A stretch of DNA of 64,000 nt, from NCBI GenBank assembly GCA_026706445.1, contig JAPOYT010000174.1, positions 5,445 through 69,444 on the forward strand, read 5' to 3'. Source of the stretch: Chloroflexota bacterium. GTDB lineage: Bacteria; Chloroflexota; Anaerolineae; Aggregatilineales; Phototrophicaceae. Below the pieces are notes generated by a model, which saw only the letters and a program-made list of their open reading frames with translations, was not told where the DNA came from and ran no database searches. The position numbers and the translations under genes were made by a program. Of this stretch, positions 2,460 to 63,076 are shown piece after piece. Position 1 is the first letter of the stretch, and each line of letters opens with the position of its first letter.

Positions 2460-2571
2460 GGTTCCGTTCTCAGCTCATTCGAGCGACCCTGGCCGGCGCG
2501 ATAAAGCCGTTGACGCCAGAGCCATAGGTTGGCGCTTGCGCGGGCTTGACCCCGCGAGAACAGTCAAAGGG

Positions 2572-4467: not shown

Positions 4468-4606
4468 GCCTTACCCTTTGGTGTGAATGACGCTTTCAGC
4501 AGCGTGAAAAAGCGCGGTATATTCACGCGAAGATATTTCGGAACGCAGCCACGCGGGAGGCCATTCACTCTTACGCCGGCTGCAGCCTGCTGCGGCGCGA
4601 TAACGC

Positions 4607-6499
4607 TCAACCCTCTACACTGAAGCCGCCAACTTCGACTTCCCGCTGGAAACGAGCCTGCGTACCTGCAACCAACCCGGGCTGGCTCTTCAGTGATTCC
4701 GTATCGTAAACAATTAGCTTTACGACATATTCCCCCGCGGGCAGGGACGAGGCATCCAAGCTGATAGTATAGAATCCGCTGTCGCCGATTAGATTGTCGG
4801 TCTGCAAACCCGTTTGCGCTCCCTCTCGGTCGAAAACCTGCAGCGAATAGGTGTATATCCCAAAATCTGTCCGCGTCCACCAGGTATATACATTCAAGGA
4901 ATCCGAAGCCGCCTCAATTTCGATGTTCGCCAACTCGGCGCCGTTGTCAAACTGTATGGCGAGCGGTTCAGAAGACCGTAGCAGCGCGCAGGACACATCC
5001 AGCGGCGCGTATCGCTCAATGACGGAGAGCGGCTTGTCAACGTAGCGGCCGCATGATCGATAATGGTTAGCGAAGCCATCGGCGTATGCGGGAATGCTCT
5101 CCAAGTCCGTCTCCCGCGGGTTGTAAACGAGCCATACCGGGAAGCGCCAAGATGCCATGCTCTCTGCAGAGCCCAGCGCTGGGGCGGAGCTATAAAATGC
5201 GGGAATGCCGTCGTCGTTCCAAATATGGATGAGCCCAGCCCATTTGCCCGGCATCTGGCTGTAATAGCTGCGATACTGCCAGGAAAGTGGCAAATCAGGA
5301 TGGAAGCTAACGATGTAATCATTTTCATGTGTGGTGACCGCGGGCTCATAGAGCAAATCCTGAAAGTGCGGCATCTTGTGCTGATTCTGCGTGAGCCAGT
5401 TAGTGTATAGTAGCATCTCGTCGCTGCGGGAATAAGCGACGAAGGCGCCGATCCACAGAATCAAAAAAGGAATGCGCAGCAACTGCCATGAGGGCAAAAG
5501 GCTCAGCACTGCAGCGAGCGCGCAAGCCCAGGGAAAGGCGAATATGATCGTGTAGCGGATTCGCCGCGCAATGAGCAGCGGAGCGACTTCATTTGCGGCG
5601 AGCATCAACAGGGCGATGGCGCCGGCAAGAATCAAAATGTACTTCTGGGCTTGGCCCAGCCGTCTGTAATTCACGGCTGCTATGATTGCGGCGACTGGCA
5701 CGAGGAATGGCAGGCCATTCGTGTAGATTGAAGCGATTGCCCGCGCGGAATCCACCAGGGACAAGGCATCGCTCCAGGGAACGCCTCTGCCCGCTGTTCC
5801 CGCCACAAAATACGGCAGCAGCGGGGTGAACAGCAGACCGGCCGCCAACGAAGCCAGGGAGATTTGAAGCCAGCGTCTCGTTTTCCGGGCGAAGAATACA
5901 TGGTAGACGCCAATCGCCGCCAGGACGATCAATCCAAAATAGTGCGCCCAGGTGATTGCGGCGGCGGCGCAAATGTAATTCAGCCAGCATCGTCGCGGAA
6001 CCGGCTCCTCCATAGAGGCGAGTTTCCAGTATGACCAGGCGACCCAAGCCGTCCCCAAAGCCAGCAAACTGTACATTCTGGCGGTATAGCTGTAGTAGAC
6101 AAAGTAAGCGATACAGGCAGCGAGCAGCGCCGCCATAATCGCCGTGTCCGCGCCGTCGATTAGCAGCGCAAGGCGGAAAGTGAGGGCAAGCGCCAGAAGA
6201 CCGAAGAAAACGGAGAGCAGGCGCAGCGTGAAGAAATCGCGGCCCGTCAACCGGCTCCAAATGTTCAAAATCACCATATATCCCGGAGCGTGATCGGGCG
6301 AGCGGGCGAATACGCTTGCAACGGTTTCAGCAATACTTAAGGTTGGGCTCGAATGCGATATCCAGAGATGTTTGATCGAGTTGGCTTCCGAGTCAAAAAC
6401 GGGATAAGACTTTAGGTTGGAGGCGCCAAGAACAAAGCTTAGCGCCAAGCAGAGCAAGACAATGGCGAAATGCGACTTGGATACGCGCAAGCTATTCAA
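4607..6499 (-). CDS. GT-C fold membrane glycosyltransferase paralog with conserved C-terminal domain
   Basis: 630-aa ORF. It shares long near-identical DNA and protein blocks with 6632..8524, e.g. GQAQKYILILAGAI, IRYTIIFAFPWACALA, GKWAGLIHIW and ANHYRSCGR. Confidence 0.75.
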   Translation of the reverse strand: MNSLRVSKSHFAIVLLCLALSFVLGASNLKSYPVFDSEANSIKHLWISHSSPTLSIAETVASVFARSPDHAPGYMVILNIWSRLTGRDFFTLRLLSVFFGLLALALTFRLALLIDGADTAIMAALLAACIAYFVYYSYTARMYSLLALGTAWVAWSYWKLASMEEPVPRRCWLNYICAAAAITWAHYFGLIVLAAIGVYHVFFARKTRRWLQISLASLAAGLLFTPLLPYFVAGTAGRGVPWSDALSLVDSARAIASIYTNGLPFLVPVAAIIAAVNYRRLGQAQKYILILAGAIALLMLAANEVAPLLIARRIRYTIIFAFPWACALAAVLSLLPSWQLLRIPFLILWIGAFVAYSRSDEMLLYTNWLTQNQHKMPHFQDLLYEPAVTTHENDYIVSFHPDLPLSWQYRSYYSQMPGKWAGLIHIWNDDGIPAFYSSAPALGSAESMASWRFPVWLVYNPRETDLESIPAYADGFANHYRSCGRYVDKPLSVIERYAPLDVSCALLRSSEPLAIQFDNGAELANIEIEAASDSLNVYTWWTRTDFGIYTYSLQVFDREGAQTGLQTDNLIGDSGFYTISLDASSLPAGEYVVKLIVYDTESLKSQPGLVAGTQARFQREVEVGGFSVEG

Positions 6500-6631
6500 A
6501 ACCGATCACTCTGTCGGGAAGTTTTGTGCTGTCAGACATGCCTACGATGCCTTGCCATGCAGTGCGCCTTAGTTCCATACTGGTACAGCTCAGTTTGACT
6601 CCGGCGACAGCTTGCGAATACAGGCGCACAG

Positions 6632-8524
6632 TCAATCCCCGATGGTGAAGCGGCCGACCTCGACTTCCCGCTGGAATTGAGTCTGCGATCCCGCAACCTG
6701 CCCGGGCTGGCTCTTAAATGAAATAGTGTCGTATACAATTTGCCGGACGACATACTCGCCCGCCGACAGGGACGATACATCCAGGCTTAGCGAATAAAGT
6801 CCGCTGTCGCCAATTAGATTGTCAGTCTGTGGCGCGGCTTTTGCTCCCTCGCTGTCGAAAACCTGCAGCGTATAGGTGTATTTGCCGAAGTCGGTCCGCG
6901 ACCACCACGAATATACATACAAGGTATCCGCGTCCAACTCAAAATGGATATTCGCCAATGCCGTGCCGTTGTCATAGTTTATCGCCAGCGGATCAGCAGA
7001 CGTTAGCAGGGCGCAGGACACATCCACCGGGGCGTATCGCTCAATCACAGACGATGGCTTTTCAACGAAGCGGCCACATGAGCGGTAATGGTTCGCGAAA
7101 CCTTCGGCGTATGCGGGTATGCTGCCTAAATCAGTCTCTTGCGGGTTGTAAATCAGCCAGACCGGAAAGCGCCATGACGCCATGCTGCTCACCGAGCCTA
7201 ATTCTGGGACGGAGCTTTTGAAGGCGGGGATGCCGTCGGGGGCGGTCCATATATGAATGAGCCCAGCCCATTTGCCCGGAATCTGGTTGTAATAATCAGG
7301 AATCTGCCAGGTGAGAGACGTATCTGGATGAAAGCTGACGATGAAATCCGATTCGTTTGTGACGACCGCCGGTTCATAGAGCAAATCTTGATAGTGCGGC
7401 ATCTTGTGCTGATCCTGCGTAAGCCAATTGGTGTAGAGCAGCAGGTCGTCGGTGCTGGAATAAGCAGCGAAGCCCGCTATCCACAAAATCAAGAAGGGAA
7501 TGCGGATGAGCCGCCAAGCCGGTAAGAGATTCAGACCAATCGCGAGCGCGCATGCCCATGGCAAGGCGAATATAATCGTGTATCTGATCCGCCGGGCATA
7601 GAGCAGGGTGGTGAATTCGTTAGCCGCCAGCAGCAGAAGAACGATAGCGCAGGCAAGTATCAAGATGTACTTCTGGGCTTGGCCAAGCCGTCGGTAATTC
7701 AAAGCCGCCGCGAGCCCGACGACGGGCGCAATGAAGGGCAGACCGTTCGTGTAAATCGAAGCCATTGCCAACACCGAGTCAACAGAGGATAGCGCATTGC
7801 TGTCGGGAGTACTCTTTGCTGCGATACCGGCGATTAAGACTGGCAGCCAAGGCGCGAATAGAAGAACCGCCGCTATAAGAGCCAGGCAAGTTTGGAGCCA
7901 GCGTCTGTCTTTGCGCGCGAAGGCAAGATGATATAAGCCGACTGCCGCAAGCGCGATCAACCCCAAATAATGCACCCATAAAATGGCGGATGACGCGGCA
8001 ATGAATGCGATCCAGTAGCGGAGCGGAACCGGGCGCGCCATGGACGTGACCTTCCAATAGCACCATGCGACCGAAACCGACAGCATCGCCAGCAATCCAT
8101 ACATTCTGACGGTATAGGTGAAATACACGGCAAAGGCGAGACTGGCCGCCAATAGCGCTGCGTCTATCGCAATATCAGCGCTGCCTGTCAGCAAAGCCAG
8201 TCTATAGGTGATGGCAACGCCAAAGAGACCGAAGTAAACAGAGAACAGGCGCAGCGCGAACAAATCTCGCCCGGCGAGGCGATTCCAAAGGTTCAACAAG
8301 ACGACATACCCGGGAGAATGGACTTTGTCGCTGACGACCGTATCGACAGTCTCGGGAAGACTATACGTGGGACCAAAGCGCGTTGCCGACAGATGAAGGG
8401 TGGAGTTGTATTCGGCGCCGACAATCGGAAAAGACTTGAGGTTCGAAAGACCTAGCACATAGGTCAAAGCCAAACAAAATGCAATCACGGCAAAATGAGC
8501 CTTCGTTCGGCGCAACTCGTTCAT
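6632..8524 (-). CDS. GT-C fold membrane glycosyltransferase paralog with conserved C-terminal domain
   Basis: 630-aa ORF, closest paralog of 4607..6499, with the same TM-rich N-terminal half and the same C-terminal domain. Confidence 0.75.
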   Translation of the reverse strand: MNELRRTKAHFAVIAFCLALTYVLGLSNLKSFPIVGAEYNSTLHLSATRFGPTYSLPETVDTVVSDKVHSPGYVVLLNLWNRLAGRDLFALRLFSVYFGLFGVAITYRLALLTGSADIAIDAALLAASLAFAVYFTYTVRMYGLLAMLSVSVAWCYWKVTSMARPVPLRYWIAFIAASSAILWVHYLGLIALAAVGLYHLAFARKDRRWLQTCLALIAAVLLFAPWLPVLIAGIAAKSTPDSNALSSVDSVLAMASIYTNGLPFIAPVVGLAAALNYRRLGQAQKYILILACAIVLLLLAANEFTTLLYARRIRYTIIFALPWACALAIGLNLLPAWRLIRIPFLILWIAGFAAYSSTDDLLLYTNWLTQDQHKMPHYQDLLYEPAVVTNESDFIVSFHPDTSLTWQIPDYYNQIPGKWAGLIHIWTAPDGIPAFKSSVPELGSVSSMASWRFPVWLIYNPQETDLGSIPAYAEGFANHYRSCGRFVEKPSSVIERYAPVDVSCALLTSADPLAINYDNGTALANIHFELDADTLYVYSWWSRTDFGKYTYTLQVFDSEGAKAAPQTDNLIGDSGLYSLSLDVSSLSAGEYVVRQIVYDTISFKSQPGQVAGSQTQFQREVEVGRFTIGD

Positions 8525-45042: not shown

Positions 45043-45068
45043 ACTCTTGATTAGTTGAGGTGGAAATC

Positions 45069-46298
45069 ATGGTTACCGTAAATCATGAAAACCTTGAATG
45101 GGCACGTAATGCTGCCAAGTTAAGCATTGCAGATGCTGCCAAAAAACTTGGATTTACAAGTTCAAGCAGAAGCACAGCAACGGAAAAACTCCAGAAACTT
45201 GAAAACGGCGATAGACCCCCGACGCAGCCGCAATTGAGCAAAATGGCAAATGTGTACCGCGTACCGGTCGTTGCGTTCTATTTGGACTCTGAACCGCGGA
45301 AGAGTGACCTAGGTGAAGACTATCGTACGATTCCACAGCGGTCGGAAGACTCTGTTGCCAATGCCCATTTGGCAATCCTACTTAGTAACGTCAAGGCACG
45401 TCAGAGCATCACTCGAGATCTTCTTGAAGACGAAGACGCAGAGCCTCTCCGATTCGTATCCTCTGCTTCAACCAGAATGGGTGCTGACCGAGTCGCCAGC
45501 AGCATCGTCGAAACCATGGAGTTTAACCTTAAAGAATACCAGCGCCGGCCAAGCCAGCCGCGTGAAGCTTTCAATTATCTAAGATCCCGAATCCAATCAA
45601 TAGGGATATTCGTTCTTCTGATGAGCGACTTAGGTCATCCTCAGACTACGACAATTCCTGTTTCGGTTTTTCGTGGTTTCGCAATATCCGATGATATTGC
45701 TCCATACGTTGTTATCAATCGCAAGGATGATAAACGCGCACAGTCGTTTACTGCTTTGCATGAAGTGGCGCATCTTTGGCTGGGGACAAGTGGAATTACT
45801 GGTACGATAAATGAAACAAGCTCCAGTTTGGAACAGTTCTGTAATCGCGTTGCCGGTAGAATTCTCCTGCCCCGTCGTGAGCTTACAGCATTGTCCAAGA
45901 TGCATAATGACTCGTTCGACACCGCGCTAGATAGAATCACAGATTTTGCCCACTCAAAAAACCTGAGCCGGGCAATGGTAGCTTACAGTCTCAAGCTTGA
46001 AGATTACATCAGTCAAACTATGTGGTATCGGATCACTGAATGGCTGCTGCGTGACCACGCTCTACGCGAGCAACGCGAAAAGGAGCAGCGGGAACTTGAC
46101 AAGGCGCTCGGAAAAAGCACTCCAATTGACCCCAACGTGGTGAGGCGAAGTTCATTGGGCGAACCTCTGCTCAGCCTAGCGCGCCGTTCAGTTGCGAGCG
46201 GCGCTCTGACACCTACTAGAGCAAGCACATTGCTTGGCGTAAACCCACGTAAAGTAAGAACATTCCTAAATCCGGAACGATTGCGGCAGGAGGGCTAA
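45069..46298 (+). CDS. XRE-family HTH fused to an ImmA/IrrE (COG2856) zinc metallopeptidase domain
   Basis: The N-terminal HTH is LSIADAAKKLGFTS...QLSKMANVYRVPVVAF. The HExxH motif is ALHEVAHLWLG, preceded by FRGFAISDDIAPYVVINR. GC content is visibly lower than in the flanks. An alternative GTG start exists at 45060. Confidence 0.75.
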   Translation: MVTVNHENLEWARNAAKLSIADAAKKLGFTSSSRSTATEKLQKLENGDRPPTQPQLSKMANVYRVPVVAFYLDSEPRKSDLGEDYRTIPQRSEDSVANAHLAILLSNVKARQSITRDLLEDEDAEPLRFVSSASTRMGADRVASSIVETMEFNLKEYQRRPSQPREAFNYLRSRIQSIGIFVLLMSDLGHPQTTTIPVSVFRGFAISDDIAPYVVINRKDDKRAQSFTALHEVAHLWLGTSGITGTINETSSSLEQFCNRVAGRILLPRRELTALSKMHNDSFDTALDRITDFAHSKNLSRAMVAYSLKLEDYISQTMWYRITEWLLRDHALREQREKEQRELDKALGKSTPIDPNVVRRSSLGEPLLSLARRSVASGALTPTRASTLLGVNPRKVRTFLNPERLRQEG

Positions 46299-46826
46299 GT
46301 GCTCTACCTCTTGGACGCTAATGTGCTCATAACGGCACACGATGATTACTATCCAATTGACCGAATTCCGCAATTCTGGGAATGGATCATTGATAATACC
46401 AAGCAGGGTCACCTAAAGATGCCGTTTGAGATGATAGCCGAAGTTAAAGCCGGTCAACCAAAGAGAGATGCCGAAAATCAGGACGACGAACTATTGAGAT
46501 GGCTAAGAATTAACAATCATGAGAAGGAATTGCAGCTTGACGCAAGCGCTGATCAAGTGGAGGTGAATAGAGTCTTCAAAGACGGATACGAACTTCCGAC
46601 GCCATCTTTAGACGAGCTGAACAAGATTCGTAAGGATCCCTTACTTATCTCATACGCCTTGGGAGGACAACGCACTACTATCGTGACGCTGGAAGCAAAG
46701 CAAGAAAATGCAACCGACGAAATGAAAAAACATAAGCGAAAGATTCCGTTCGTTTGTCGAAAGCTAGGCATCCGCTGCATTGACACTTTCGATCTTATAC
46801 GGGAACTTGATTTCCGGATTACCTAG
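46299..46826 (+). CDS. DUF4411-family PIN-like nuclease
   Basis: 175 aa. The start codon immediately follows the upstream stop. The N-terminus is LYLLDANVLITAHDDYYPIDRIPQFWEWI, and the C-terminal part contains KIPFVCRKLGIRCIDTFDLIREL. Confidence 0.7.
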   Translation: MLYLLDANVLITAHDDYYPIDRIPQFWEWIIDNTKQGHLKMPFEMIAEVKAGQPKRDAENQDDELLRWLRINNHEKELQLDASADQVEVNRVFKDGYELPTPSLDELNKIRKDPLLISYALGGQRTTIVTLEAKQENATDEMKKHKRKIPFVCRKLGIRCIDTFDLIRELDFRIT

Positions 46827-51426: not shown

Positions 51427-53172
51427 TCACTCCGTCTCCGCCACCAGCTCGCTGTGAATGAAGGCGCTGCCACCCTCCAGCCGGATTTCCAGCCAGACAT
51501 CGGTATCGTAGACGGTCTCACCCGTAACGCTGTCGATCACTTCGACTTCCGTACCCGGCGCTAACTTGTCGACGATGTCGCAGCTCGTCCGCGGGCAGGC
51601 GCGAATGTTGGCGTTGAGATTGCGCTGCGTCTCGATGACAGCCCTTGTCCTGGGAGCAGCCGTCGCAGTATAGGTAGAAGTCGGCGGCAAGTCGGTCGCG
51701 CTGGATGTGGCGGTCGGCGGCACGTCGGTCGCGGTGAAGGTGGGTGTTGGCGGCAAGTCGGTCGTGGTGGAAGTGGCGGTCGGGGGCAAGTCGGTCGCAG
51801 TGGAAGCGGGCGTCGGCGGCAAGTCGGTCGCGGTATCTGTGGCCGTCGGTTTCGGCAATGCGCTCGCGCTTGTCGCGGCAATTGGCGAATACCCGCCTTC
51901 TTGTCGAGCGCGCAGGTGGAATATCACGCGGTCGCCTGGCGACAAACTCGCAATCGTCGTCCCAAGGAAATTAGTGTTCCTCCAGTTCGTGAAGGCTCCG
52001 CCATTCACGCTGTAGCGATATTGATAGCCAAGCGCCCCCGCCTCTTCTGTCCATTCAAATCTGACCGAGTCATGGCTCGCCTTGGCAAAGCGCACAGCCA
52101 GGCGCAGGGGCGCTGGTGTGTCCGTCGGCTTCGGCAATGCGTTCGCGGTAATCCGCGTAATTGGCGAATATCCGCCTTCTTGTCGAGCGCGCAGGTGGAA
52201 TATCACGCGGTCGCCTGGCGACAAACCCGCTATCGTCTTCCCAAGGAGCGAGATATTTGTCCAACTCGTGAGGGCGGCGCCATTGACGCTGTAGCGATAT
52301 TGGTAGAAATGCGCGCCCGCCGCTCTTGTCCATTCAAATCTGACCGAGTTATGGCTCGCCCTGGCGAAGCGCGCAGCCAGGCGCAGGGGCGCTGGCGCGG
52401 GCCTTGACTGCGCTATGCCGCTCCGCGACAAGGCGGTCTCGGCCCAACGCCGGAGCTCGTCGACAGCATCGCGCTGGGCAATTAACGAATAGAGCGAGCC
52501 AAGCAGCAGCAACAGGATGATGAAGCGTACGAAATTCCCGCGTCGCCCAGAGCGTCTCAGCTCGGTGGCGGGCCCGACGGCGCCGACTTCGGCTGATTGC
52601 CCGTGACTGCGGCGGTCGCGCGCCGAAACGTTGACGGCCGCATCGCTGCGGCGGCGGGCTGTCGAGCGCTGGCGCGAGGATCCTGCTTGACTTCGCGATG
52701 GGACAGACCTGGTCGCATCAGTTCTGCGGCGCGCGGTTGAGCGCTGGCGCGGGGATTGAGACACGCTCGGCTTGAGCAGACTGGAGAATGATCGGCTCTG
52801 GCGACGAGACTGTTGCCCGGGTCGGACCTCCGCGTTCGAGTCGCGCATTTCTTGGGCTTGGTCATGATCCAGCTCGAACCACTCGCCGATAGCTGTTCCG
52901 GCGGCAATTTCATCGTGCAGCGCTAGTTCGGCCGCAGCCGCGTCATCCGCCTGCCAGATACGCGCGACACGCGTCTCAAAAGGCAAATCGGCGCCGCGCC
53001 GCATCTGGTGTCGATCCAACTGCTGATGGCGCGCGATCTTGTAGCGGCTGCCGTAATCGACATCCAGAATGAGAATGATGTAGCCGGCCGGCGGCGCGAC
53101 CCATGGCAAGCGCGAAACGCGGTCGAGCGCGATTGGCTTCACATCGGGCCTGTCGAGCACTTTCCTCTCCAT
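51427..53172 (-). CDS. Membrane-anchored multidomain protein: T5orf172/MUG113 (GIY-YIG-like) N-domain, Arg/Ser-rich linker, TM, 2 x FN3-like, Pro/Thr repeat, SH3b
   Basis: 581 aa. The N-domain is GYIILILDVDYGSRYKIARH...AELALHDEIAAGTAIGEWFEL. The TM segment is FVRFIILLLLLGSLYSLIA. Two ~92-aa repeats follow (PAPLRLA.RFA.ASH.SVRFEWT...YQYRYSVNG...LSPGDRVIFHLRARQEGGYSP), then 5 x TATDLPPTxxx. The C-terminal SH3b-like part is NANIRACPRTSCDIVDKLAPGTEVEVI...WLEIRL. Confidence 0.65.
   Translation of the reverse strand: MERKVLDRPDVKPIALDRVSRLPWVAPPAGYIILILDVDYGSRYKIARHQQLDRHQMRRGADLPFETRVARIWQADDAAAAELALHDEIAAGTAIGEWFELDHDQAQEMRDSNAEVRPGQQSRRQSRSFSSLLKPSVSQSPRQRSTARRRTDATRSVPSRSQAGSSRQRSTARRRSDAAVNVSARDRRSHGQSAEVGAVGPATELRRSGRRGNFVRFIILLLLLGSLYSLIAQRDAVDELRRWAETALSRSGIAQSRPAPAPLRLAARFARASHNSVRFEWTRAAGAHFYQYRYSVNGAALTSWTNISLLGKTIAGLSPGDRVIFHLRARQEGGYSPITRITANALPKPTDTPAPLRLAVRFAKASHDSVRFEWTEEAGALGYQYRYSVNGGAFTNWRNTNFLGTTIASLSPGDRVIFHLRARQEGGYSPIAATSASALPKPTATDTATDLPPTPASTATDLPPTATSTTTDLPPTPTFTATDVPPTATSSATDLPPTSTYTATAAPRTRAVIETQRNLNANIRACPRTSCDIVDKLAPGTEVEVIDSVTGETVYDTDVWLEIRLEGGSAFIHSELVAETE
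51665..51840 (-). repeat. In-frame 33-bp tandem repeat (about 5 units) encoding (T/S)ATD(L/V)PPT(P/A/S)T(S/F/Y)
   Basis: Read directly from the translation: TATDLPPTPAS / TATDLPPTATS / TTTDLPPTPTF / TATDVPPTATS / SATDLPPTSTY. The DNA shows the recurring unit GGCGGCAAGTCGGTCGCGGT. Confidence 0.8.
51841..52395 (-). repeat. Tandem duplication of ~276-279 bp (two FN3-like modules) inside the gene
   Basis: The two protein modules are nearly identical over long stretches, e.g. LSPGDRVIFHLRARQEGGYSPI. The corresponding DNA strings recur about 280 nt apart. Confidence 0.8.
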
Positions 53173-53260
53173 TCAGCGGGCGCCTAGGCGCTTGGATTGT
53201 AACACGAACCGAAGCCCCTTAGATTTTGCGCGCCCTAGGCTCGCGGCGAATACTCGATTC

Positions 53261-53974
53261 TTACGCTGGGAACACCCCAATGCTGACAAGGAAAAGATAA
53301 GCCAAACCCGCCAGCACGAGCCCGGTCCAAATGAGCAAGAGACAGCCCGGGTCATTCCACAGAAGGTGCTTTATTCGCAATTCAATAAGCGCGCGCAGCG
53401 ACGAAGGCGGCTCAGCGGGTTGGCTGATCCTTGTTTTGGGGAGCTCCCTGGAGCGCCGCAACGCTTCGGCGCCATAAGATTTGAAAAGGGAATTCTGCCC
53501 TGATCGCCGGCCTTCACGCCATTTCTTTCGCCCGGACGCGCCCAAATCGAACGATGCCAAGGTCTCATAACGCGACAAGGCTTGAGGACGCGCTAAAGTT
53601 GACGCGCCAGATTGCCGCGGCGCCAGGTAGAGACTGCGATGCGCGTCAATTTGCAATACCGAACGGCGCAATTCCTCCAGTTGCAACTCGTCCAAGTCAA
53701 GCCATTCCTGGCTCAGGCGCGCGTGATGGCGCTCAAAAAGCTCGGACTCGCTTTTGCGCAGGTCCTGGGTTTCGAGAATGGAGACGAGCTCAATGCCGAA
53801 GGCGCGCTCGTCTTCGTCCATTATCGCGCGGATGCAGGTGGCCGGACGGTTCGCGCCATCAATTCGGAAGCGGTCGCGGTCAATGTCGCGAATGACGCAG
53901 ATATAACCGGCCGGCGCTTCGAGCGGCGGCAACGATTCATAGTCTTTGGGCGGCAGGCTGCGCACGACTCCCAA
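53261..53974 (-). CDS. Paralog 2: degenerate T5orf172/GIY-YIG-like N-domain, basic linker, C-terminal TM anchor
   Basis: 237 aa. The N-domain is PAGYICVIRDIDRDRFRIDGANRP...FGIELVSILETQDLRKSESELFERHHARLSQEWLDLD. The C-terminal TM segment is CLLLIWTGLVLAGLAYLFLVSIGVF. Confidence 0.6.
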   Translation of the reverse strand: MGVVRSLPPKDYESLPPLEAPAGYICVIRDIDRDRFRIDGANRPATCIRAIMDEDERAFGIELVSILETQDLRKSESELFERHHARLSQEWLDLDELQLEELRRSVLQIDAHRSLYLAPRQSGASTLARPQALSRYETLASFDLGASGRKKWREGRRSGQNSLFKSYGAEALRRSRELPKTRISQPAEPPSSLRALIELRIKHLLWNDPGCLLLIWTGLVLAGLAYLFLVSIGVFPA

Positions 53975-54303
53975 CCATTATCACGCTTGCATAGCCTTCC
54001 GCGTCCACAAAGGCAAAATTAGTTTACCACGATAGTGCGAGCCGCTGTCGTGGCAACAGCGTAAGCGTAGCCCCATGTCTCCTGAAGACATGCCCCTCGC
54101 GCGCGTCAGCGAATCAAGGACACAAGTTTGCGGGGGACATATACGGTTTTGCCATTCTGTTTGAATCGGACCCAATTAGCGCTCCCGTCCACTTTGTCGC
54201 CTAGCGCAAAACCCAAGGAGCGAATCTCGGCTCCGCCCGACAAACGGCTGACGGCGGCGCAATGTTGCGCCGGGCATTCTCGCGCCGTGACGGCTCGCAG
54301 TAC

Positions 54304-55134
54304 TCAGTAATTCGGCCCAGGTTTAACAGCCGATTGCTGAGTCGACGATGATGACCTGGCGGAAGAATCTATCGCCGTCGATCGCGTATCGGGGCAGCCG
54401 CCATACGGGTTGCAAGACAAATCAACGGTGGCCAGGCAAAACAATGCTACCAGCGCCAGCGCAGCCAGGCATTTCCATGGATGCTTGACCCAAAGATTTG
54501 TGATGGCCTCATCAATGGCTTGGCGAATTGAGCGCCGGCTATGATCGTACTGGTCCTCCGCCAATGACAGAGGCCTGCCGCGCGGCCGATGAGAACGCGC
54601 GCCATATCGATTTGATCCCAGCGTGGACGGCGGATTCGAGCGCTGCGCTTCGTCGAGCCGGTCCTTCTGCGCAAGTTGTGACGAGCGCCCTTGCCATTGC
54701 GGCGAGTCGCTGTCGGTCGGCTGCTCATACTCTAAACCATGAATCTCATCTGGGCCAATGTATTGGCTGCGGTGCGCGTTGACCTGCAAATCGGACTTTT
54801 GCAGTTCGCGCAATTGATAGGTATCGAGAGCAAGCCAATCCGCGCTCAAAGTCGCGTGATGACGCTCAAAAAGACGCGCCTCGCTTTCCGCGATATTGTC
54901 CGATTCCAGGATGGAAAGGAGTTCAATGCCGAATTCGCGAGTCCGCTCGGCAAAGGCTGCTTCAATCAGCGACCGAGGCTGATCGGTCGCCTGTATCCGA
55001 TATCGATCGCTGTCGACATCGCGAATGACGCAGATATAGGCGGCCGGATGCCGCAGCTTGGGCAGGCTTGCGTAGTCAGCCGGTGGAATACTTCTCAAAT
55101 TTGCGCTGTCCCCCCTGTCGGATGACACCCTCAT
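54304..55134 (-). CDS. Paralog 3: degenerate T5orf172/GIY-YIG-like N-domain, polar linker, TM anchor, short Cys-containing tail
   Basis: 276 aa. The N-domain is PAAYICVIRDVDSDRYRIQATDQP...FGIELLSILESDNIAESEARLFERHHATLSADWLALD. The TM segment is CLAALALVALFCLATV. Confidence 0.6.
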   Translation of the reverse strand: MRVSSDRGDSANLRSIPPADYASLPKLRHPAAYICVIRDVDSDRYRIQATDQPRSLIEAAFAERTREFGIELLSILESDNIAESEARLFERHHATLSADWLALDTYQLRELQKSDLQVNAHRSQYIGPDEIHGLEYEQPTDSDSPQWQGRSSQLAQKDRLDEAQRSNPPSTLGSNRYGARSHRPRGRPLSLAEDQYDHSRRSIRQAIDEAITNLWVKHPWKCLAALALVALFCLATVDLSCNPYGGCPDTRSTAIDSSARSSSSTQQSAVKPGPNY

Positions 55135-55294: not shown

Positions 55295-55867
55295 ATGAAT
55301 GTCGCCCGTCTGATTGAATCCAGCTTCAACGAAGCGGCCAAAGCCTTGACCATGGGCACGTCCCAACGCTCCTTGGCGCGCGCGCGTGAACGAGCCTTTA
55401 CCAAGGCGCTCATCGCCCAATTCAGGCGCGAATTCGACGGCGAGGATCATCGCGTCTTCGCCACAACGCAACGCGGCAACGCGGCCGATTTCGCGACTAA
55501 TCAGCTTCTCTACGACATCGCCGTCTGCCGCATTGGCGCTGGCAAAACCGCCGAGCGCAAATCGGAGGATTTCCACTTTATCGCGCAGGCGCTTTGGCAA
55601 GTCGAAATCGACTTCTCGCGCGAATGGCGGCAAGCGCTGTACGCCATCAATCGGCTCAACTGCGGCGCCGCCGCCGACAAACTGCTGATCACATCAAAAC
55701 TGGCGCGGAGCCATATGCAATTTCTGGACACCTTGCGGGCGCCGAGCGCGGCTGTCGGTGGCACGCTCTATCTGGCTTTCGTCGCGCATCCGGCTGACTG
55801 GGATGACGACGCGGGCGCGCCCCAGGTGTGGCGAATCGCCGACGGCGAATGGAAAGAGGTGACATGA
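55295..55867 (+). CDS. Hypothetical cytoplasmic protein (190 aa)
   Basis: Divergent from paralog 3. A TATAAT lies 8 nt upstream of the ATG, so the transcript may be leaderless or short-leadered. It contains LYDIAV...WQVEIDF, weakly reminiscent of a PD-(D/E)xK core, but this is not established. Confidence 0.5.
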   Translation: MNVARLIESSFNEAAKALTMGTSQRSLARARERAFTKALIAQFRREFDGEDHRVFATTQRGNAADFATNQLLYDIAVCRIGAGKTAERKSEDFHFIAQALWQVEIDFSREWRQALYAINRLNCGAAADKLLITSKLARSHMQFLDTLRAPSAAVGGTLYLAFVAHPADWDDDAGAPQVWRIADGEWKEVT

Positions 55868-55955
55868 GACCGATTCCGCTGTTGCTCGACCCTTCGGTAT
55901 CGCCCCGTTTCCAAGAGGCTCGCAGGGTCAAAGGAAACTTATCCCGGGAGGGAGC

Positions 55956-56981
55956 ATGCTCAACCTGAAGATTGTAATCGGCTTTATCTCGCTCGTCTTG
56001 GCCTTTTTTGAAGGCAATAGCCTAATCGATGTAACGTTTCGACCGTCTATAGCCCTGATCTCAAACGTAGAATCCGTTGCGCCGGCCGCCGATGACGAAA
56101 GCAACTGGCAGTTGCGCGCGCGCCTTACTTTCGACGAGAACTGCGATATCGAACCGCAAAGCGAAGTCACCTATTACCCAAACAATATTGATATTCAGCT
56201 GTATCGCGTTATACCGTCCACGATCGAGTGCGGAGACGAAGAGGAACAATTTGAGCTTCAATTGACCTTGTCGAACGCGGCTGAGCTTAACTATCTGATT
56301 ATCAACGACCGCGCGTGGATGATCAGACACAGAGCGTCGCGAGAGACCAGTGTAAGCAACCGCCCCAGACTGCATGAGACGAGTCTGTTTCCTGTGTGGG
56401 TTGATGAGGCAAACCTCAGCTTTGATGATGACGCCAATCAATACAATCTGTCGTATCGCGGCCTCCAGGCGGTGGGCTGTGCTTTGCCTGAAATCTACTC
56501 GCTGCGGCAGAGGAGCGGCGGCGCCCTGCTCGCTGTTTACAATGCCATGCCAGCCGATGGTGTCTGCCCGGCTGTCGCGGCGCTTGTCGACGAGAAGATC
56601 ACTTTGTCCGCAACCGATGTGCCAGCCGATACGTTATTCTCAGTGAACACTTATCCGATTGGAGCGATAGAGGAGCAAGCGGTGAACGAAAGCGACAAAG
56701 TTTTAAGCAATATCTTCCGCGTCGACGTACAAGTGAAGGAGGCGCGAATAAGCCTTGATGTGGCGGGCGAACACCCCGATGGCTGCGAGTTTCCGGTGAT
56801 CGTCGCTCAGACGCGCCGCGGAAACACCGTCGATGTTGAGGTTTACCGCGAAGTGCCGGCTGATGTCATCTGCCCGATGATCCTCAAGCCTTATCGCGAC
56901 ATGATCAGCCTGGATGGCGAATTTGCGCCTGGCGCGTATACCATCAATGTCAACTCGCACTCGCAAGCGGTAAACATCTAA
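55956..56981 (+). CDS. Hypothetical exported protein with three Cys-pair modules
   Basis: 341 aa with an N-terminal hydrophobic anchor or signal (IVIGFISLVLAFF). There are three segments, each with two Cys: CDIEP...IECG, GCALPE...GVCPAV, GCEFP...VICPM. Confidence 0.55.
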   Translation: MLNLKIVIGFISLVLAFFEGNSLIDVTFRPSIALISNVESVAPAADDESNWQLRARLTFDENCDIEPQSEVTYYPNNIDIQLYRVIPSTIECGDEEEQFELQLTLSNAAELNYLIINDRAWMIRHRASRETSVSNRPRLHETSLFPVWVDEANLSFDDDANQYNLSYRGLQAVGCALPEIYSLRQRSGGALLAVYNAMPADGVCPAVAALVDEKITLSATDVPADTLFSVNTYPIGAIEEQAVNESDKVLSNIFRVDVQVKEARISLDVAGEHPDGCEFPVIVAQTRRGNTVDVEVYREVPADVICPMILKPYRDMISLDGEFAPGAYTINVNSHSQAVNI

Positions 56982-56993
56982 AGGAGTCAATCC

Positions 56994-58439
56994 ATGCCCA
57001 TGCGCATACTCGCCTTGGCTACCATAATTCTGCTTGGAGGTCTCCAGATGGTCACCGCGCAAGATGGCGCCAATATATCGTTGACGGTATATAACGACGG
57101 CGCCGCCCTGGTGCGCGAAAAGCGCCAAATGACGCTTGAGCAGGGGGTCAATAGCGTCACAATCCGCGATGTCGCAGCAACGATTGACCCTGTGTCATTC
57201 GGTTTCAAGTCACTCAGCGATCCGGCTGGCGCCGTCGTACTGGAGCAAAGCTACCGCTATGACAAAGGCGAAGCCGATGCCTTGCTGGCGGACTTCATCG
57301 GTGAGACGGTCGAGATAAGCATCTCCGCCGATGAGCGTTACAGCGGCGAGCTGCTGCAAATACAAGGCGAAAAGGCGCTCCTGCGCACTGCGCCAAACGA
57401 GATTGTCTTCCTGAACCTGTACAATGTCCGCGGAATCAAGTTTCCCGCTCCACTCGATGACCTTTACTCTGGACCCAGCTTGCAACTGCTCCTGAACAGC
57501 GACAGCGCCGGTGAACATGAGGTGGCGCTGTCTTATCTGGCTGGCGGGATGAACTGGACCGCGGATTACAGCGTTTACCTGAATGCGGAAGAAACCGCCT
57601 TTGATCTGATGGGCTTGGTAACCTTGGGCAATCGCAGCGGGCGCGCATACGAAAACGCCTCGCTGAAATTGGTCGCTGGTGAAGTCAGCCGGATAGAGCG
57701 GGAAGAAGCAGTCTACGCTGAGGAGCGTATGATGGCGCAGAGCGCCGCCGCCGACTATAGCGCTGACGTGGAGCAGCGAGATTTTAGCGATTTCAAGCTC
57801 TATGCAGTCACGCGTCCAATCTCAATCGCGGACGGAGAAACGAAGCAGATTGAGTTCGTCTACGGCGCCGACATCATGGCGACCATCACCTATGTCTTCG
57901 ACAGTTCGCCACACTTCGGCGGCTACTACCGACCCATTGACTATTTTGAGCGCCGTGGCGCGGAAAGCGGCGATGTGCGGACCTACCTCTCGTTTAGCAC
58001 TGGCGAGGAGAGCGGTCTGGGCGCCGACCTGCCGGCCGGGCGCGTTCGCGTTTACAAAGCCGATGTCGATGGCGCGAATTTGCTGATTGGCGAGAGCGGC
58101 ATCAGCCACACAGCCAAAGGCGATGAAGTCCTGCTCGGGCTGGGCAACGCCTTTGACTTGACGGGGGAACGCATACAGACAGACTTTAGTTTCGTTTCCC
58201 GCCGCGTCGCGCGCGAGTCATTCGAGATTCGATTGCGCAATCGCAAAGATGACGATCCCGTTTCCATCGTTGTGCCGGAGCGATTGTACCGCTGGCGCGA
58301 CTGGCAGATCATCCAAAGCTCGGCGCCCTTTGTAAAGGTGGACAACGCGAGCATCGAGTTTGATATCACGGTGGCGCCCGGCGCGGAAGAAGCGCTGAGC
58401 TATACGGTTGAGTACAGTTTCCCCGAGGACGACGAATAA
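56994..58439 (+). CDS. DUF4139/DUF4140-domain protein (MuiA-like), secreted
   Basis: 481 aa with a signal peptide (MRILALATIILLGGLQMVTAQ). The N-terminus ISLTVYNDGAALVREKRQMTLEQGVNSVTIRDV is typical of DUF4140. NWTADYSVYL and YRWRDWQI fit DUF4139. Confidence 0.65.
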   Translation: MPMRILALATIILLGGLQMVTAQDGANISLTVYNDGAALVREKRQMTLEQGVNSVTIRDVAATIDPVSFGFKSLSDPAGAVVLEQSYRYDKGEADALLADFIGETVEISISADERYSGELLQIQGEKALLRTAPNEIVFLNLYNVRGIKFPAPLDDLYSGPSLQLLLNSDSAGEHEVALSYLAGGMNWTADYSVYLNAEETAFDLMGLVTLGNRSGRAYENASLKLVAGEVSRIEREEAVYAEERMMAQSAAADYSADVEQRDFSDFKLYAVTRPISIADGETKQIEFVYGADIMATITYVFDSSPHFGGYYRPIDYFERRGAESGDVRTYLSFSTGEESGLGADLPAGRVRVYKADVDGANLLIGESGISHTAKGDEVLLGLGNAFDLTGERIQTDFSFVSRRVARESFEIRLRNRKDDDPVSIVVPERLYRWRDWQIIQSSAPFVKVDNASIEFDITVAPGAEEALSYTVEYSFPEDDE

Positions 58440-61825: not shown

Positions 61826-62041
61826 TTAATTCAAGTTGCCAAGTAGCTCTTCTAGCAACTCCTTAAGTTTGTCGCCCGCGAGTTTGTACCCGTCCGCATA
61901 CCCTTGTTCGTAAGCGCAGTAAGTACATTTGTGACGCCCGCCGCCAGACTGATTTTCCGGCAGCGTTTTCATGATCTTATCAAGATCGTCCCGCCGATAT
62001 TTATTTCGTTTTCCCGCATGTTTTGAACAATCATTCGCCAT
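61826..62041 (-). CDS. Hypothetical 71-aa protein translationally coupled to the Dam-family methylase
   Basis: Its start overlaps the methylase stop (ATGA-type overlap at 62039-62043). Cys/His residues (C5, H8, HKCTYC) suggest a small metal-binding fold. No family is recognised. Confidence 0.45.
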   Translation of the reverse strand: MANDCSKHAGKRNKYRRDDLDKIMKTLPENQSGGGRHKCTYCAYEQGYADGYKLAGDKLKELLEELLGNLN

Positions 62042-62912
62042 TAGCTGCCAACCTCATAATTCGTCACCAACAATTCATTTACTGCGCCTCGTTGGTCGGG
62101 CTTGCTATTGACCATTCGCGGCGCTTTAACCTCGTCAATTGAGAAAATGCAATCTGCATAGAGTTCGCGCGTGAACGGGGTATCGCTGTTGGACAGCAGA
62201 ATCGACGCGCCGCGCATGTGCAATTCTCGGCAAAGATCGCGCAACATAATTTGCTCTGCCTCGCCGAAGCCATTTCGCGCGTAATCAGTGAAGGAGCCGC
62301 CAGCTAACGGATGATAGGGTGGATCGAAATAGACGAAGTCACCGGCGCCAGCCTCCACTTCGCAGAAGTCGCATTTTCGGACGAGAACCGACTGAAGCGC
62401 AGCATGGCAGCCGCGCAGCATCGCAGGCTGGCAGATCGCCGGCTTTTCTGCGCTCCCCATCGGCACGTTGAACTCGCCCTTGCTGTTCACACGCCAAAGG
62501 CCGTTGTAGCAGGTCTTGTTGAGGTAGATGAAGCGCGCCGCTATCTCGATCCGGTCATCGAGATCGTGCTGGCTGCGGATGTGGTAGTAGTAGTCTTTCG
62601 AGTGATTTTGGGCGTGCTGCTTTAGCTTATGAATGAGGGGTTCTGGGTCGCGCTGGATGACCTGGTAGGTATTGATGAGGTCAAAGTTGACATCACTTAA
62701 GAATGCCTCCCCCCCCCCCCCCCGCCTAAATTAACTTTTCGTTCATTCTTCAAAGCGAAGAAAAGCGCGCCGCCGCCAACGAAGGGTTCGTAATAATTCT
62801 TGAATTCAGCCGGAACACGAGCCTGAAGCTCGGGCAGGAGGCTGCGCTTGCCGCCTACCCACTTGACGAATGGCTTCGCATTGTGAAAATCGGGTAAAGA
62901 CGTTTGGGGCAT
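62041..62912 (-). CDS. Dam-family (MethyltransfD12) N6-adenine DNA methyltransferase, reading frame interrupted at a poly-G tract
   Basis: The N-terminal piece (ORF 62697..62984, probable start Met25 at 62912) reads [15 protein letters not shown], then [11 protein letters not shown]. The middle and C-terminal part, in the other frame, reads [17 protein letters not shown], then [24 protein letters not shown], then FVYFDPPY. The frames would join if the tract were 16 or 13 nt instead of 15. Confidence 0.8.
62709..62723 (-). repeat. Homopolymer: C15 on the plus strand, G15 on the coding strand
   Basis: Counted directly in the sequence (62709-62723). It encodes poly-Gly and is the site of the frame break. 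Confidence 0.9.
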
Positions 62913-62948
62913 TTGCTGCCATCGACCATAAAAGTTGCGCACACTTGA

Positions 62949-62977
62949 TCTATATGATCGTTTTGCGCGCCTGTCAA
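62949..62977 (-). promoter_or_regulatory. Putative sigma-70 promoter of the methylase gene
   Basis: The minus strand reads TTGACA (62977-62972), a 17-nt spacer, then TATAGA (62954-62949), about 35 nt upstream of the ATG at 62912. Confidence 0.5.
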
Positions 62978-63076
62978 GCGGCACTAAATCCTAGAATTCT
63001 AAAACGCCGCTCACCTATGGTATACTTTCCGACTGATATGGAATCAAAAACCGCAGTCGTCGACGAAGGGAAGGTT

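What the first reader, a model, noticed from the sequence alone, without database searches (positions are those of the whole stretch)
51427..55134. Three tandem membrane-anchored proteins with a T5orf172/GIY-YIG-like cytoplasmic domain
Three consecutive minus-strand genes share a ~100-aa N-terminal domain with the pattern G-Y-I-(I/C)-(L/V)-I...(Y/F)-(K/R)-I...E..L(H/F)....(E/D)W(F/L).L. This matches the T5orf172/MUG113 branch of the GIY-YIG superfamily. The pattern is clearest in the first gene (GYIILILDVDYGSRYKIARH...GEWFEL) and degenerate in the other two.

Each domain is followed by a long basic or polar low-complexity linker and exactly one TM helix. The first protein continues outside the membrane with two FN3-like modules, a Pro/Thr repeat and an SH3b-like domain. 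Nuclease-like T5orf172 domains are normally soluble and often phage- or defense-associated. An N-in, single-pass architecture resembles anti-sigma or transmembrane signalling proteins instead. I do not know of a described system with this layout.
Basis: partly seen in the sequence, partly recalled or inferred. Interest (0 to 1): 0.75.

Follow-up and report, generated by a model that had tools for sequence, protein, structure and literature searches.

The report
Membrane-anchored, probably inactive T5orf172 nuclease-like proteins
Three neighbouring genes of a Chloroflexota bacterium encode membrane proteins whose cytoplasmic head derives from a phage-type (T5orf172/GIY-YIG) DNA-cutting domain but has lost key catalytic residues; the family is conserved and undescribed, and its function is unknown.

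Summary
Three minus-strand genes, P1 (581 aa), P2 (237 aa) and P3 (276 aa), share a ~110-aa N-terminal domain, a disordered linker and one predicted TM helix. P1 adds two FN3-like modules, a Pro/Thr repeat and an SH3b domain.

The domain assignment is also correct. P1's isolated head passes Pfam thresholds for MUG113 and T5orf172. P2/P3 heads match a canonical T5orf172 subfamily by profile-profile comparison (99.5 %, E 2.5e-23).

Arrays of 1-4 paralogs occupy the same locus (ppk-DUF4139-h341-h190 | array | xth-M20-aldh) in 36 species-level MAGs labelled Anaerolineae, Aggregatilineales or Phototrophicaceae. Heads are under purifying selection (dN/dS 0.2-0.4).

All three window proteins have replaced the GIY tyrosine (Ile/Cys/Cys) and the catalytic arginine (His/Cys/Leu). 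Their heads are acidic, while canonical heads are basic. They are therefore probably non-catalytic.

The wider family has 438 clusters and recurrently shows head + TM + SH3b, with intact-site paralogs nearby in relatives.

My best reading is pseudo-nuclease scaffold or adaptor subunits at the inner face of the membrane. The function remains inferred.

The nearest precedents are SNIPE (a membrane-bound GIY-YIG nuclease), CapR and ANKLE2. I rate this a new variant of a known kind, of moderate interest.

The parts
51427..53172 (-). P1, 581 aa: head + basic linker + TM + 2 FN3-like modules + Pro/Thr repeat + SH3b. NCBI names a protein of the same length in P1's 90 % cluster 'SH3 domain-containing protein' (not shown to be identical to P1).
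52837..53172 (-). P1 head (residues 1-112), T5orf172/MUG113-type. Signature G-Y-I-Y-K-A-H-L-H-E-H-E-W-F, meaning GIY Tyr->Ile, YIG Gly->Ala, Arg->His, Glu and His kept.
   Evidence: AF2 strand/helix order beta-beta-alpha-beta-alpha
52534..52836 (-). P1 Arg/Ser-rich linker (residues 113-213), net charge +18, pI 12
52477..52533 (-). P1 TM helix (residues 214-232)
51838..52395 (-). Two 93-aa FN3-like modules (279-bp tandem duplication)
51680..51834 (-). Pro/Thr-rich 11-aa repeat (33 bp x 4.7)
51442..51615 (-). SH3b (Pfam SH3_3) domain, residues 520-577
53261..53974 (-). P2, 237 aa, tail-anchored: head 1-120, disordered linker 125-189, juxtamembrane helix 193-207, TM 209-232
53615..53974 (-). P2 head. 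Signature G-Y-C-F-R-D-A-P-C-E-F-E-W-L, meaning GIY Tyr->Cys, Gly->Asp, Arg->Cys, His->Phe, Glu kept. pI 5.0.
   Evidence: pLDDT 90-97
53279..53398 (-). P2 juxtamembrane helix + TM anchor (residues 193-232)
54304..55134 (-). P3, 276 aa: head + polar linker + TM 222-240 + 36-aa Cys- and Ser-rich tail predicted outside the membrane
54745..55134 (-). P3 head. Signature A-Y-C-Y-R-Q-T-P-L-E-F-D-W-L, meaning GIY Tyr->Cys, Gly->Gln, Arg->Leu, His->Phe, Glu kept.
54415..54471 (-). P3 TM helix

Best explanation
What they are. P1, P2 and P3 are paralogues of a family, so far seen only in Chloroflexota, of single-pass membrane proteins with the N-terminus inside the cell. The cytoplasmic head descends from the T5orf172/MUG113 branch of GIY-YIG endonucleases.

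Ancestral state. Canonical family members keep the full catalytic set and a basic head. They are most likely membrane-tethered endonucleases.

State in the window. In all three proteins the GIY tyrosine and the catalytic arginine are substituted and the head has become acidic. I therefore take them to be non-catalytic pseudo-nucleases.

Proposed role. They act as structural or regulatory subunits held at the inner face of the membrane. P2 and P3 are held by a C-terminal anchor alone. P1 is held by a TM helix that continues into a cell-wall-binding SH3b/FN3 ectodomain, so it would couple the cytoplasmic head to the envelope. The most likely partners are each other and the catalytically intact membrane-anchored T5orf172 paralogues, which lie in or near the same locus in related genomes.

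Shown: homology, active-site substitutions, single predicted TM helix, array conservation, purifying selection on the heads.

Inferred: N-in topology, loss of nuclease activity, peptidoglycan binding by SH3b, hetero-oligomerisation, and the cellular role.
For: Homology.
- P1's head passes the Pfam cut-offs for MUG113 and T5orf172.
- hhalign, P1-type against canonical: 99.8 %, E 5.5e-29.
- hhalign, P2/P3-type against canonical: 99.5 %, E 2.5e-23.
- 34 of 65 distant relatives hit MUG113 and 28 hit T5orf172.

Active site.
- Canonical members have invariant G-Y-x-Y, K-I-G-x-T, E and H, and near-invariant P and R.
- Window proteins have Ile/Cys/Cys at the GIY Tyr and His/Cys/Leu at the Arg.
- In orthologues of the P2 type the Glu is Ala in roughly a quarter of cases.
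- GIY, YIG, Arg and Glu are the residues crucial for GIY-YIG function (PMC13179284, citing Dunin-Horkawicz 2006). T5orf172 nuclease activity depends on the Glu (PMC10448857).

Charge. Median head pI is 9.4 for canonical, 6.1 for P1-type and 4.8 for P2/P3-type.

Membrane anchoring. One TM helix is found in nearly all full-length family members. The P2 model has a confident head, a disordered linker and a confident TM helix.

Real, selected genes. The array is present at the same locus in 36 species. Head dN/dS is 0.22-0.39 against 0.6-0.8 for the P2 and P3 linkers.

Possible partners. A paralogue with the intact signature sits in or beside the array in L006, L010, L020, L022, L024 and L027. Another lies ~18 kb from the array on the one contig where both could be placed, and in the same syntenic position in three further relatives.

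Recurrent architecture. Head + TM + SH3b occurs in 43 of 65 distant relatives.
Against: - No biochemical or expression data exist.
- Foldseek gave no significant match to solved GIY-YIG structures and only weak matches to viral T5orf172/GIY-YIG models. The fold assignment therefore rests on sequence profiles.
- The Glu, the YIG-type aromatic residue and the (E/D)W motif are retained, so residual or altered catalysis cannot be excluded.
- A nearly invariant Cys replaces the Tyr in the P2 type. This could mark a new function rather than simple decay.
- No intact-site paralogue lies within this 64-kb window.
- The partner hypothesis rests on proximity in relatives only.
- Topology comes from hydropathy and charge rules, not from a dedicated predictor or an experiment.
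Confidence: 0.45

Rival explanations
1. The three proteins are active membrane-tethered nucleases. They would work like SNIPE, cutting incoming phage or foreign DNA at the membrane. The SH3b/FN3 ectodomain of P1 would position the complex at the cell wall.
For: - SNIPE shows that membrane anchoring of a GIY-YIG nuclease is a working defence design (PMC13190303).
- The Glu that SNIPE and Odn need is retained in all three proteins.
- Copy number and ectodomains vary strongly between species.
- One relative carries a TIR_2 gene and an extra paralogue inside the array.
- Some relatives add an extracellular SNase + Excalibur.
Against: - The GIY Tyr and the Arg are lost in all three.
- The Glu is dispensable in P2-type orthologues.
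- The heads are acidic.
- There are no PADLOC hits and no DUF4041.
- There are no PHROG hits, unlike the canonical relatives.
- The locus is core and syntenic in 36 species, not a mobile island.
- Few and weak relatives occur in viral contigs.
Confidence: 0.12
2. They are membrane-tethered signalling or transcription factors, of the anti-sigma or ToxR type. The ectodomain of P1 would sense the envelope and the head would bind DNA or a sigma factor.
For: - P1 has an N-in, single-pass layout with an extracellular domain.
- T5orf172 was first described as a DNA-binding domain, and CapR is a domesticated T5orf172 repressor (bioRxiv 10.1101/2020.11.28.402263; PMC10448857).
Against: - P2, P3 and most family members have no ectodomain to sense with.
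- The heads are acidic, which is poor for DNA binding.
- No sigma factor gene was identified among the conserved neighbours, and Pfam finds no HTH, wHTH or anti-sigma domain.
- CapR binds DNA through a separate zinc-finger domain, not through T5orf172 (PMC10448857).
Confidence: 0.1
3. They tether nucleic acid to the envelope. The Arg-rich disordered linkers (P1 net +18) would bind DNA or RNA at the membrane, and the head would serve only as a folded cap or oligomerisation unit.
For: - Linker charge is strongly positive in P1.
- P1 is anchored on both sides of the membrane: SH3b outside, basic tail inside.
Against: - Linker sequence and charge are poorly conserved: dN/dS is 0.6-0.8 and the P3 linker is only +2.
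- The head is the conserved part.
Confidence: 0.12
4. They are decaying, lineage-specific junk paralogues with no function.
For: - The active site is degenerate.
- Public records give no functional name: 'SH3 domain-containing protein' for the P1 cluster and 'hypothetical protein' for named P2/P3-type relatives.
- They evolve faster than the flanking housekeeping genes: ~80 % head identity against 81-96 % for the flanking genes in the two closest relatives.
Against: - The ORFs are intact in 36 species at a fixed locus.
- Head dN/dS is 0.22-0.39.
- Many head positions are invariant, and the juxtamembrane motif and TM helix are conserved.
- The AF2 head model is confident, pLDDT 90-97.
Confidence: 0.03

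Closest known systems
SNIPE / PD-lambda-1 (membrane-bound GIY-YIG nuclease; PMC13190303)
   Same: A GIY-YIG-superfamily domain held at the cytoplasmic face of the membrane by a single TM helix. A variable region lies on the other side of the membrane.
   Different: SNIPE has its TM helix at the N-terminus, a DUF4041 DNA/tape-measure-binding domain and a catalytically active C-terminal nuclease. Here the head is N-terminal, the TM helix is C-terminal or central, there is no DUF4041 and no PADLOC hit, and the Tyr and Arg are lost.
Phage T5orf172 homing endonucleases (ICP1 HEGs, Odn; PMC10448857, PMC8263062)
   Same: The same Pfam families, T5orf172/MUG113. Canonical relatives of the window proteins hit phage endonuclease PHROGs.
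   Different: The phage proteins are soluble, catalytically intact and mobile. The window proteins are membrane-anchored, chromosomal at a fixed locus, and degenerate at the active site.
CapR of the Vibrio PLE satellite (domesticated T5orf172; bioRxiv 10.1101/2020.11.28.402263)
   Same: A T5orf172-derived protein recruited to a non-nuclease role.
   Different: CapR is a soluble repressor that binds DNA through a zinc-finger domain. The window proteins have no such domain and are membrane-anchored.
ANKLE2 (animal membrane protein with an inactive GIY-YIG-like domain; PMC13179284)
   Same: A membrane-anchored protein with a GIY-YIG-like domain that lacks the GIY/YIG motifs and has no nuclease activity. 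The authors propose it supports ANKLE2's scaffolding function.
   Different: ANKLE2 is eukaryotic and has an unrelated architecture (LEM, ankyrin). This is an analogy, not an orthology.
Canonical membrane-anchored T5orf172 proteins of Chloroflexota ('GIY-YIG nuclease family protein', e.g. P0207, 173 aa)
   Same: The same subfamily, including the N-terminal Y-x-x-L-P-x-L extension and the C-terminal Q-L-x-E-I-R helix. They occur in the same genomes and the same chromosomal neighbourhood.
   Different: They keep the intact catalytic signature G-Y-Y-Y-K-G-T-P-R-E-H-E-W-F and a basic head. Many have two predicted N-terminal TM helices and a C-terminal head.

Membership tests
Pfam T5orf172 (PF10544) / MUG113 (PF13455) | Sequence score above the Pfam gathering cut-off | tested here: met
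   P1's head scanned alone scores 25.3 bits on MUG113 (cut-off 22.3) and 22.8 bits on T5orf172 (cut-off 20). In the full-length protein it falls just below (21.6 and 18.9).
Pfam T5orf172 (PF10544) / MUG113 (PF13455) | The same criterion for P2 and P3 | tested here: inconclusive
   There is no direct Pfam hit. Profile-profile comparison to canonical Pfam-positive relatives gives 99.5 %, E 2.5e-23, and to the P1 type 97.8 %, E 7.5e-13. They are homologous, but too divergent for the Pfam models.
GIY-YIG nuclease superfamily | GIY-motif catalytic tyrosine in strand 1 | tested here: not met
   The canonical Y23 aligns to Ile in P1 and Cys in P2 and P3.
GIY-YIG nuclease superfamily | YIG-motif aromatic residue and glycine in strand 2 | tested here: inconclusive
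   The aromatic residue is kept (Y/F/Y). The Gly is replaced by Ala, Asp and Gln.
GIY-YIG nuclease superfamily | Conserved arginine after strand 2 | tested here: not met
   The canonical R45 aligns to His (P1), Cys (P2) and Leu (P3).
GIY-YIG nuclease superfamily | Catalytic, metal-binding glutamate | tested here: met
   Glu is kept in all three. It is Ala in about a quarter of P2-type orthologues.
GIY-YIG nuclease superfamily | Beta-beta-alpha-beta-alpha fold | tested here: inconclusive
   The AF2 secondary-structure order fits. Foldseek finds no significant PDB match; Slx1 appears only at E 4.5. Viral GIY-YIG/T5orf172 models match only weakly, E >= 0.065.
SNIPE / PD-lambda-1 | N-terminal TM helix + DUF4041 + C-terminal active GIY-YIG domain | tested here: not met
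   There is no DUF4041 and no PADLOC hit. Domain order is the opposite and the active site is degenerate.
Anti-sigma factor / ToxR-like membrane regulator | Cytoplasmic anti-sigma or wHTH domain and a cognate sigma factor or regulon gene next door | tested here: not met
   Pfam and NCBIfam find no such domain. The neighbours are xth, an M20 peptidase, an aldehyde dehydrogenase, h190, h341, DUF4139 and ppk.
Tail-anchored membrane proteins | A single TM helix at the extreme C-terminus and no signal peptide | tested here: met
   P2's TM helix ends 7 aa from the C-terminus. Most 200-240-aa homologues are the same. P3 has a 36-aa tail. P1 is not tail-anchored.
Bacterial SH3 (SH3_3, cell-wall binding) | Pfam SH3_3 match above cut-off | tested here: met
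   P1 residues 520-577, 37.7 bits (cut-off 27). 43 of 65 distant relatives also carry it. Peptidoglycan binding itself was not tested.
Fibronectin type III | A significant match to FN3 | tested here: inconclusive
   Pfam fn3 does not hit at E <= 1. Most of the top PDB sequence hits are FN3 domains, but they are weak (best E 0.005).

The most novel reading that the evidence does not exclude
The array could be the non-catalytic part of a Chloroflexota-specific envelope surveillance machine, invented independently of SNIPE. Dead, acidic T5orf172 heads (P2, P3) would hold an intact, basic, membrane-anchored T5orf172 nuclease paralogue in check. P1 would link the complex through the membrane to the cell wall by its SH3b/FN3 modules. 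Envelope breach, such as phage DNA injection or foreign DNA entry, would then release nuclease activity exactly at the entry site.
Probability: 0.1. Interest if true: 0.75.

Novelty: new variant of a known kind. Interest (0 to 1): 0.5.

Why it matters
T5orf172/GIY-YIG domains are known mainly as soluble phage homing endonucleases and repair nucleases. The first membrane-bound example, SNIPE, was described only in 2026.

This locus reveals a sizeable family that public records name only generically: 438 clusters at 50 % identity. All source-named members are Chloroflexota. In this family the domain is systematically fused to a membrane anchor and, very often, to cell-wall-binding SH3b domains. 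The topology is the reverse of SNIPE, and both intact and inactivated versions sit side by side.

The family offers a natural series for studying how a nuclease becomes a pseudo-enzyme. It may also point to an envelope-associated DNA-handling or scaffolding system in a poorly studied, mostly uncultured bacterial lineage.

For annotation, 'hypothetical protein' and 'SH3 domain-containing protein' can be replaced by 'membrane-anchored T5orf172-like (catalytically degenerate) protein'.

Tried and rejected
1. A PDB sequence-profile search with the family head found nothing at E <= 10. With the canonical profile it gave only chance-level hits, plus Slx1 at E 0.73.
2. Foldseek of both AF2 models against the PDB gave no significant match. 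Against BFVD the best E was 0.065, although GIY-YIG, T5orf172 and Bro entries are among the named top hits. Structure comparison therefore neither confirms nor contradicts the sequence-based assignment.
3. PADLOC gave no hit for the three proteins, their three divergent neighbours, or the extra paralogue and TIR protein of L001. PHROGs gave no hit for the three heads.
4. A viral-contig scan with the canonical profile found only five weak relatives at 27-38 % identity. The family is not notably phage-borne.
5. h190/h341/DUF4139 (55295-58439) as specific partners: h190 lies between the DUF4139/ppk side and the array in 35 of the 36 loci, and DUF4139 and h341 in most. But ppk, xth, M20 and aldh are conserved there too. 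These genes are also absent next to canonical relatives elsewhere. Adjacency reflects block synteny and is not evidence of partnership.
6. An exact-sequence look-up of window P2 found no record.
7. The promoter and terminator scan found no more sites than in shuffled sequence. Operon structure stays open.
8. Rfam and tRNA scans found nothing in the region.
9. Cluster look-ups of ten more distant architectures returned no organism names. Distribution outside Chloroflexota is untested.

Full report
OBSERVATION.

The three minus-strand ORFs are real: P1 at 51427-53172 (581 aa), P2 at 53261-53974 (237 aa) and P3 at 54304-55134 (276 aa).

P2 and P3 share 57 % identity over their first 116 residues (E 1e-44). 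P1 aligns to both over about 100 residues at 30-32 % identity (E about 1e-5). The one exception is that P3 starts it with Ala rather than Gly.

A hydropathy scan finds exactly one TM helix per protein: P1 214-232, P2 212-230, P3 222-240.

AlphaFold2 on P2, with 37 homologues, gives a confident head (residues 1-120, pLDDT 90-97). A disordered linker follows at 125-189. A confident juxtamembrane helix plus TM helix spans 193-232.

The linkers are basic or polar. P1's linker has net charge +18 and pI 12.

The P1 ectodomain holds four elements:
- a 279-bp tandem duplication that encodes two 93-aa modules;
- a 33-bp Pro/Thr repeat;
- a Pfam SH3_3 domain at E 2.3e-9;
- weak FN3 similarity in the 93-aa modules, where most of the top PDB hits are FN3 domains (best E 0.005).

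WHAT THE HEAD IS.

In full-length P1 the head scores just under the Pfam cut-offs for MUG113 and T5orf172. Scanned alone it passes both: 25.3 against 22.3 bits, and 22.8 against 20 bits. P2 and P3 hit nothing directly.

A profile of the heads finds 438 clusters (at 50 % identity) with E <= 1e-3 and 161 with E <= 1e-10. I scanned 65 of the more distant ones against Pfam:
- 34 match MUG113 (best 5e-31);
- 28 match T5orf172 (best 3e-23);
- 43 carry SH3_3.

Profile-profile comparison ties all types together:
- P1-type against canonical: 99.8 %, E 5.5e-29;
- P2/P3-type against canonical: 99.5 %, E 2.5e-23;
- P1-type against P2/P3-type: 97.8 %, E 7.5e-13.

Structure comparison did not help. Foldseek found nothing significant in the PDB and only weak GIY-YIG, T5orf172 and Bro matches among viral models. 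The predicted order of strands and helices does fit the GIY-YIG core.

CATALYTIC RESIDUES.

Canonical family members have invariant G-Y-x-Y, K-I-G-x-T, E and H, plus near-invariant P and R.

The spacing fits I-TevI and UvrC: Tyr to Tyr is 11 residues and Tyr to Arg is 11. On that basis Y23 is the GIY tyrosine, R45 the catalytic arginine and E72 the metal-binding glutamate. The I-TevI and UvrC spacing is from my own knowledge. The statement that these four elements are crucial is quoted in PMC13179284. The Glu dependence of a T5orf172 nuclease is stated in PMC10448857.

I read fourteen signature columns from an alignment to the canonical HMM:

| Protein | Signature |
|---|---|
| canonical | GYYYKGTPREHEWF |
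| P1 | GYIYKAHLHEHEWF |
| P2 | GYCFRDAPCEFEWL |
| P3 | AYCYRQTPLEFDWL |

All three proteins have lost the GIY tyrosine and the arginine. All three keep the glutamate.

Across orthologues of the P2 type, Tyr->Cys is nearly invariant. The Glu is Ala in roughly a quarter of cases.

Head charge has also flipped. Median pI is 9.4 for canonical heads, 6.1 for P1-type and 4.8 for P2/P3-type.

Together these points argue that the window proteins are not nucleases and do not bind DNA through the head.

CONSERVATION AND CONTEXT.

A scan of one genome per species found the family in 36 MAGs. All are labelled Chloroflexota, Anaerolineae, Aggregatilineales or Phototrophicaceae.

In nearly all of them the same block is present: ppk - DUF4139 - h341 - h190 | array | xth - M20 peptidase - aldehyde dehydrogenase.

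The array holds one to four tandem paralogues. Typically there are short tail-anchored copies and a single long P1-type copy of 420-1055 aa, whose ectodomain differs between species. For example, the P1 orthologue in L001 carries a long series of SH3b-like repeats instead of FN3-like modules.

Heads are under purifying selection (dN/dS 0.22-0.39). The P2 and P3 linkers are relaxed (0.6-0.8).

The h190/h341/DUF4139 operon lies beside the array in most of the loci. However, the whole block is syntenic, and these genes are absent next to canonical relatives elsewhere. I found no evidence for a specific partnership.

Paralogues with the intact signature lie in or beside the array in six relatives. 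Another lies about 18 kb from the array on the one contig where both could be placed, and in the same syntenic position in three further relatives. That position would fall beyond the end of this window.

Named canonical relatives are annotated by NCBI as 'GIY-YIG nuclease family protein'. The 90 % cluster that contains P1-type proteins of 581-603 aa is annotated 'SH3 domain-containing protein'.

WIDER ARCHITECTURES.

Nearly every family member has at least one TM helix. The recurrent layouts are:
- head - TM - SH3b;
- head - TM - SH3b - SNase - Excalibur;
- DnaJ - DnaJ_C - head - TM - SH3b;
- 2-5 TM helices followed by a C-terminal head.

Membrane anchoring is thus the defining trait of this T5orf172 subfamily. 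The subfamily also shares an N-terminal Y-x-x-L-P-x-L extension and a C-terminal Q-L-x-E-(I/L)-R helix.

MECHANISM.

My best-supported reading is that P1-P3 are pseudo-nuclease subunits held at the cytoplasmic face of the membrane. P1 would be tied to the cell wall by SH3b. They would act as scaffold or adaptor, or as a regulator of the intact membrane-anchored T5orf172 paralogues.

Homology, active-site loss, predicted anchoring, conservation and selection are shown. Topology, inactivity, wall binding and complex formation are inferred.

The rivals are all weaker, for the reasons listed under Rival explanations:
- an active SNIPE-like nuclease;
- an anti-sigma or ToxR-like regulator;
- a nucleic-acid tether through the basic linker;
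- junk paralogues.

COMPARISON WITH KNOWN SYSTEMS.

SNIPE (PMC13190303) shows that a GIY-YIG nuclease can be membrane-bound and that anchoring protects host DNA. It has an N-terminal TM helix, a DUF4041 domain and an active nuclease. None of the three window proteins matches those features, and PADLOC is silent.

CapR and ANKLE2 are precedents for T5orf172 or GIY-YIG domains recruited to non-catalytic roles (bioRxiv 10.1101/2020.11.28.402263; PMC13179284).

Full-text searches found no paper that combines GIY-YIG with Chloroflexi/Chloroflexota, SH3b or 'tail-anchored' among the top-ranked results.

VERDICT.

This is a new variant of a known kind: a membrane-anchored GIY-YIG/T5orf172 protein with reversed topology, wall-binding ectodomains and inactivated paralogues. 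Interest is moderate, because the function is still inferred.

Noticed in passing
window 555-8524 (-): Four tandem paralogous ORFs of ~630 aa (555-2459, 2572-4467, 4607-6499, 6632-8524). Three were scanned. Two pass the Pfam cut-off for PMT_2 (ArnT/PMT-type membrane glycosyltransferase); the third scores 23.2 bits, just below the 26.1 cut-off. This is another lineage-specific paralogue array.
   Followed up: partly
window 23300-26386 (-): A 1028-aa protein that fuses an APH-type kinase, a Peptidase_M23 domain and a class-III aminotransferase. This is an unusual three-domain fusion.
   Followed up: no
window 45060-46826 (+): An HTH_3 + Peptidase_M78 (ImmA/IrrE-type) gene is followed directly by a DUF4411 gene. 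The pair looks like a toxin-antitoxin or defence-like module. Its identity to relatives varies widely, 37-83 %.
   Followed up: partly
window 62041-62984 (-): A D12-class (Dam-type) adenine methyltransferase is split into an N-terminal fragment (62697-62984) and a C-terminal fragment (62041-62490). A similar split appears in relative L001. Relative L044 has an intact 280-aa gene next to a MutH homologue.
   Followed up: partly
L001 13691-15664: In the closest complete relative the array carries two extra genes between the P1 orthologue and xth. One is a 156-aa degenerate head-only paralogue. The other is a 471-aa TIR_2-domain protein. Neither hits PADLOC.
   Followed up: partly
window 53897-53899 and 55057-55059 (Cys26 of P2 and the equivalent Cys of P3); P2-type proteins in L001-L037: The catalytic GIY tyrosine is replaced by a nearly invariant cysteine in the P2/P3 type, next to a conserved H-H pair in helix 2. 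This could be simple decay, or it could mark a new, unexplained function.
   Followed up: no
P0152, P0110 (metagenomic relatives): Some relatives fuse a complete DnaJ (J domain + DnaJ_C) to an intact T5orf172 head, a TM helix and SH3b. A chaperone-nuclease-membrane fusion of this kind has no obvious precedent.
   Followed up: no
window 55295-55867 (+): h190, the divergent neighbour that lies next to the array in 35 of the 36 loci, has no Pfam, NCBIfam or PADLOC hit. Its sequence contains a D...E-x-D-like pattern (YDIAV...WQVEIDF) that recalls PD-(D/E)xK nucleases. This was read by eye only and not tested.
   Followed up: no
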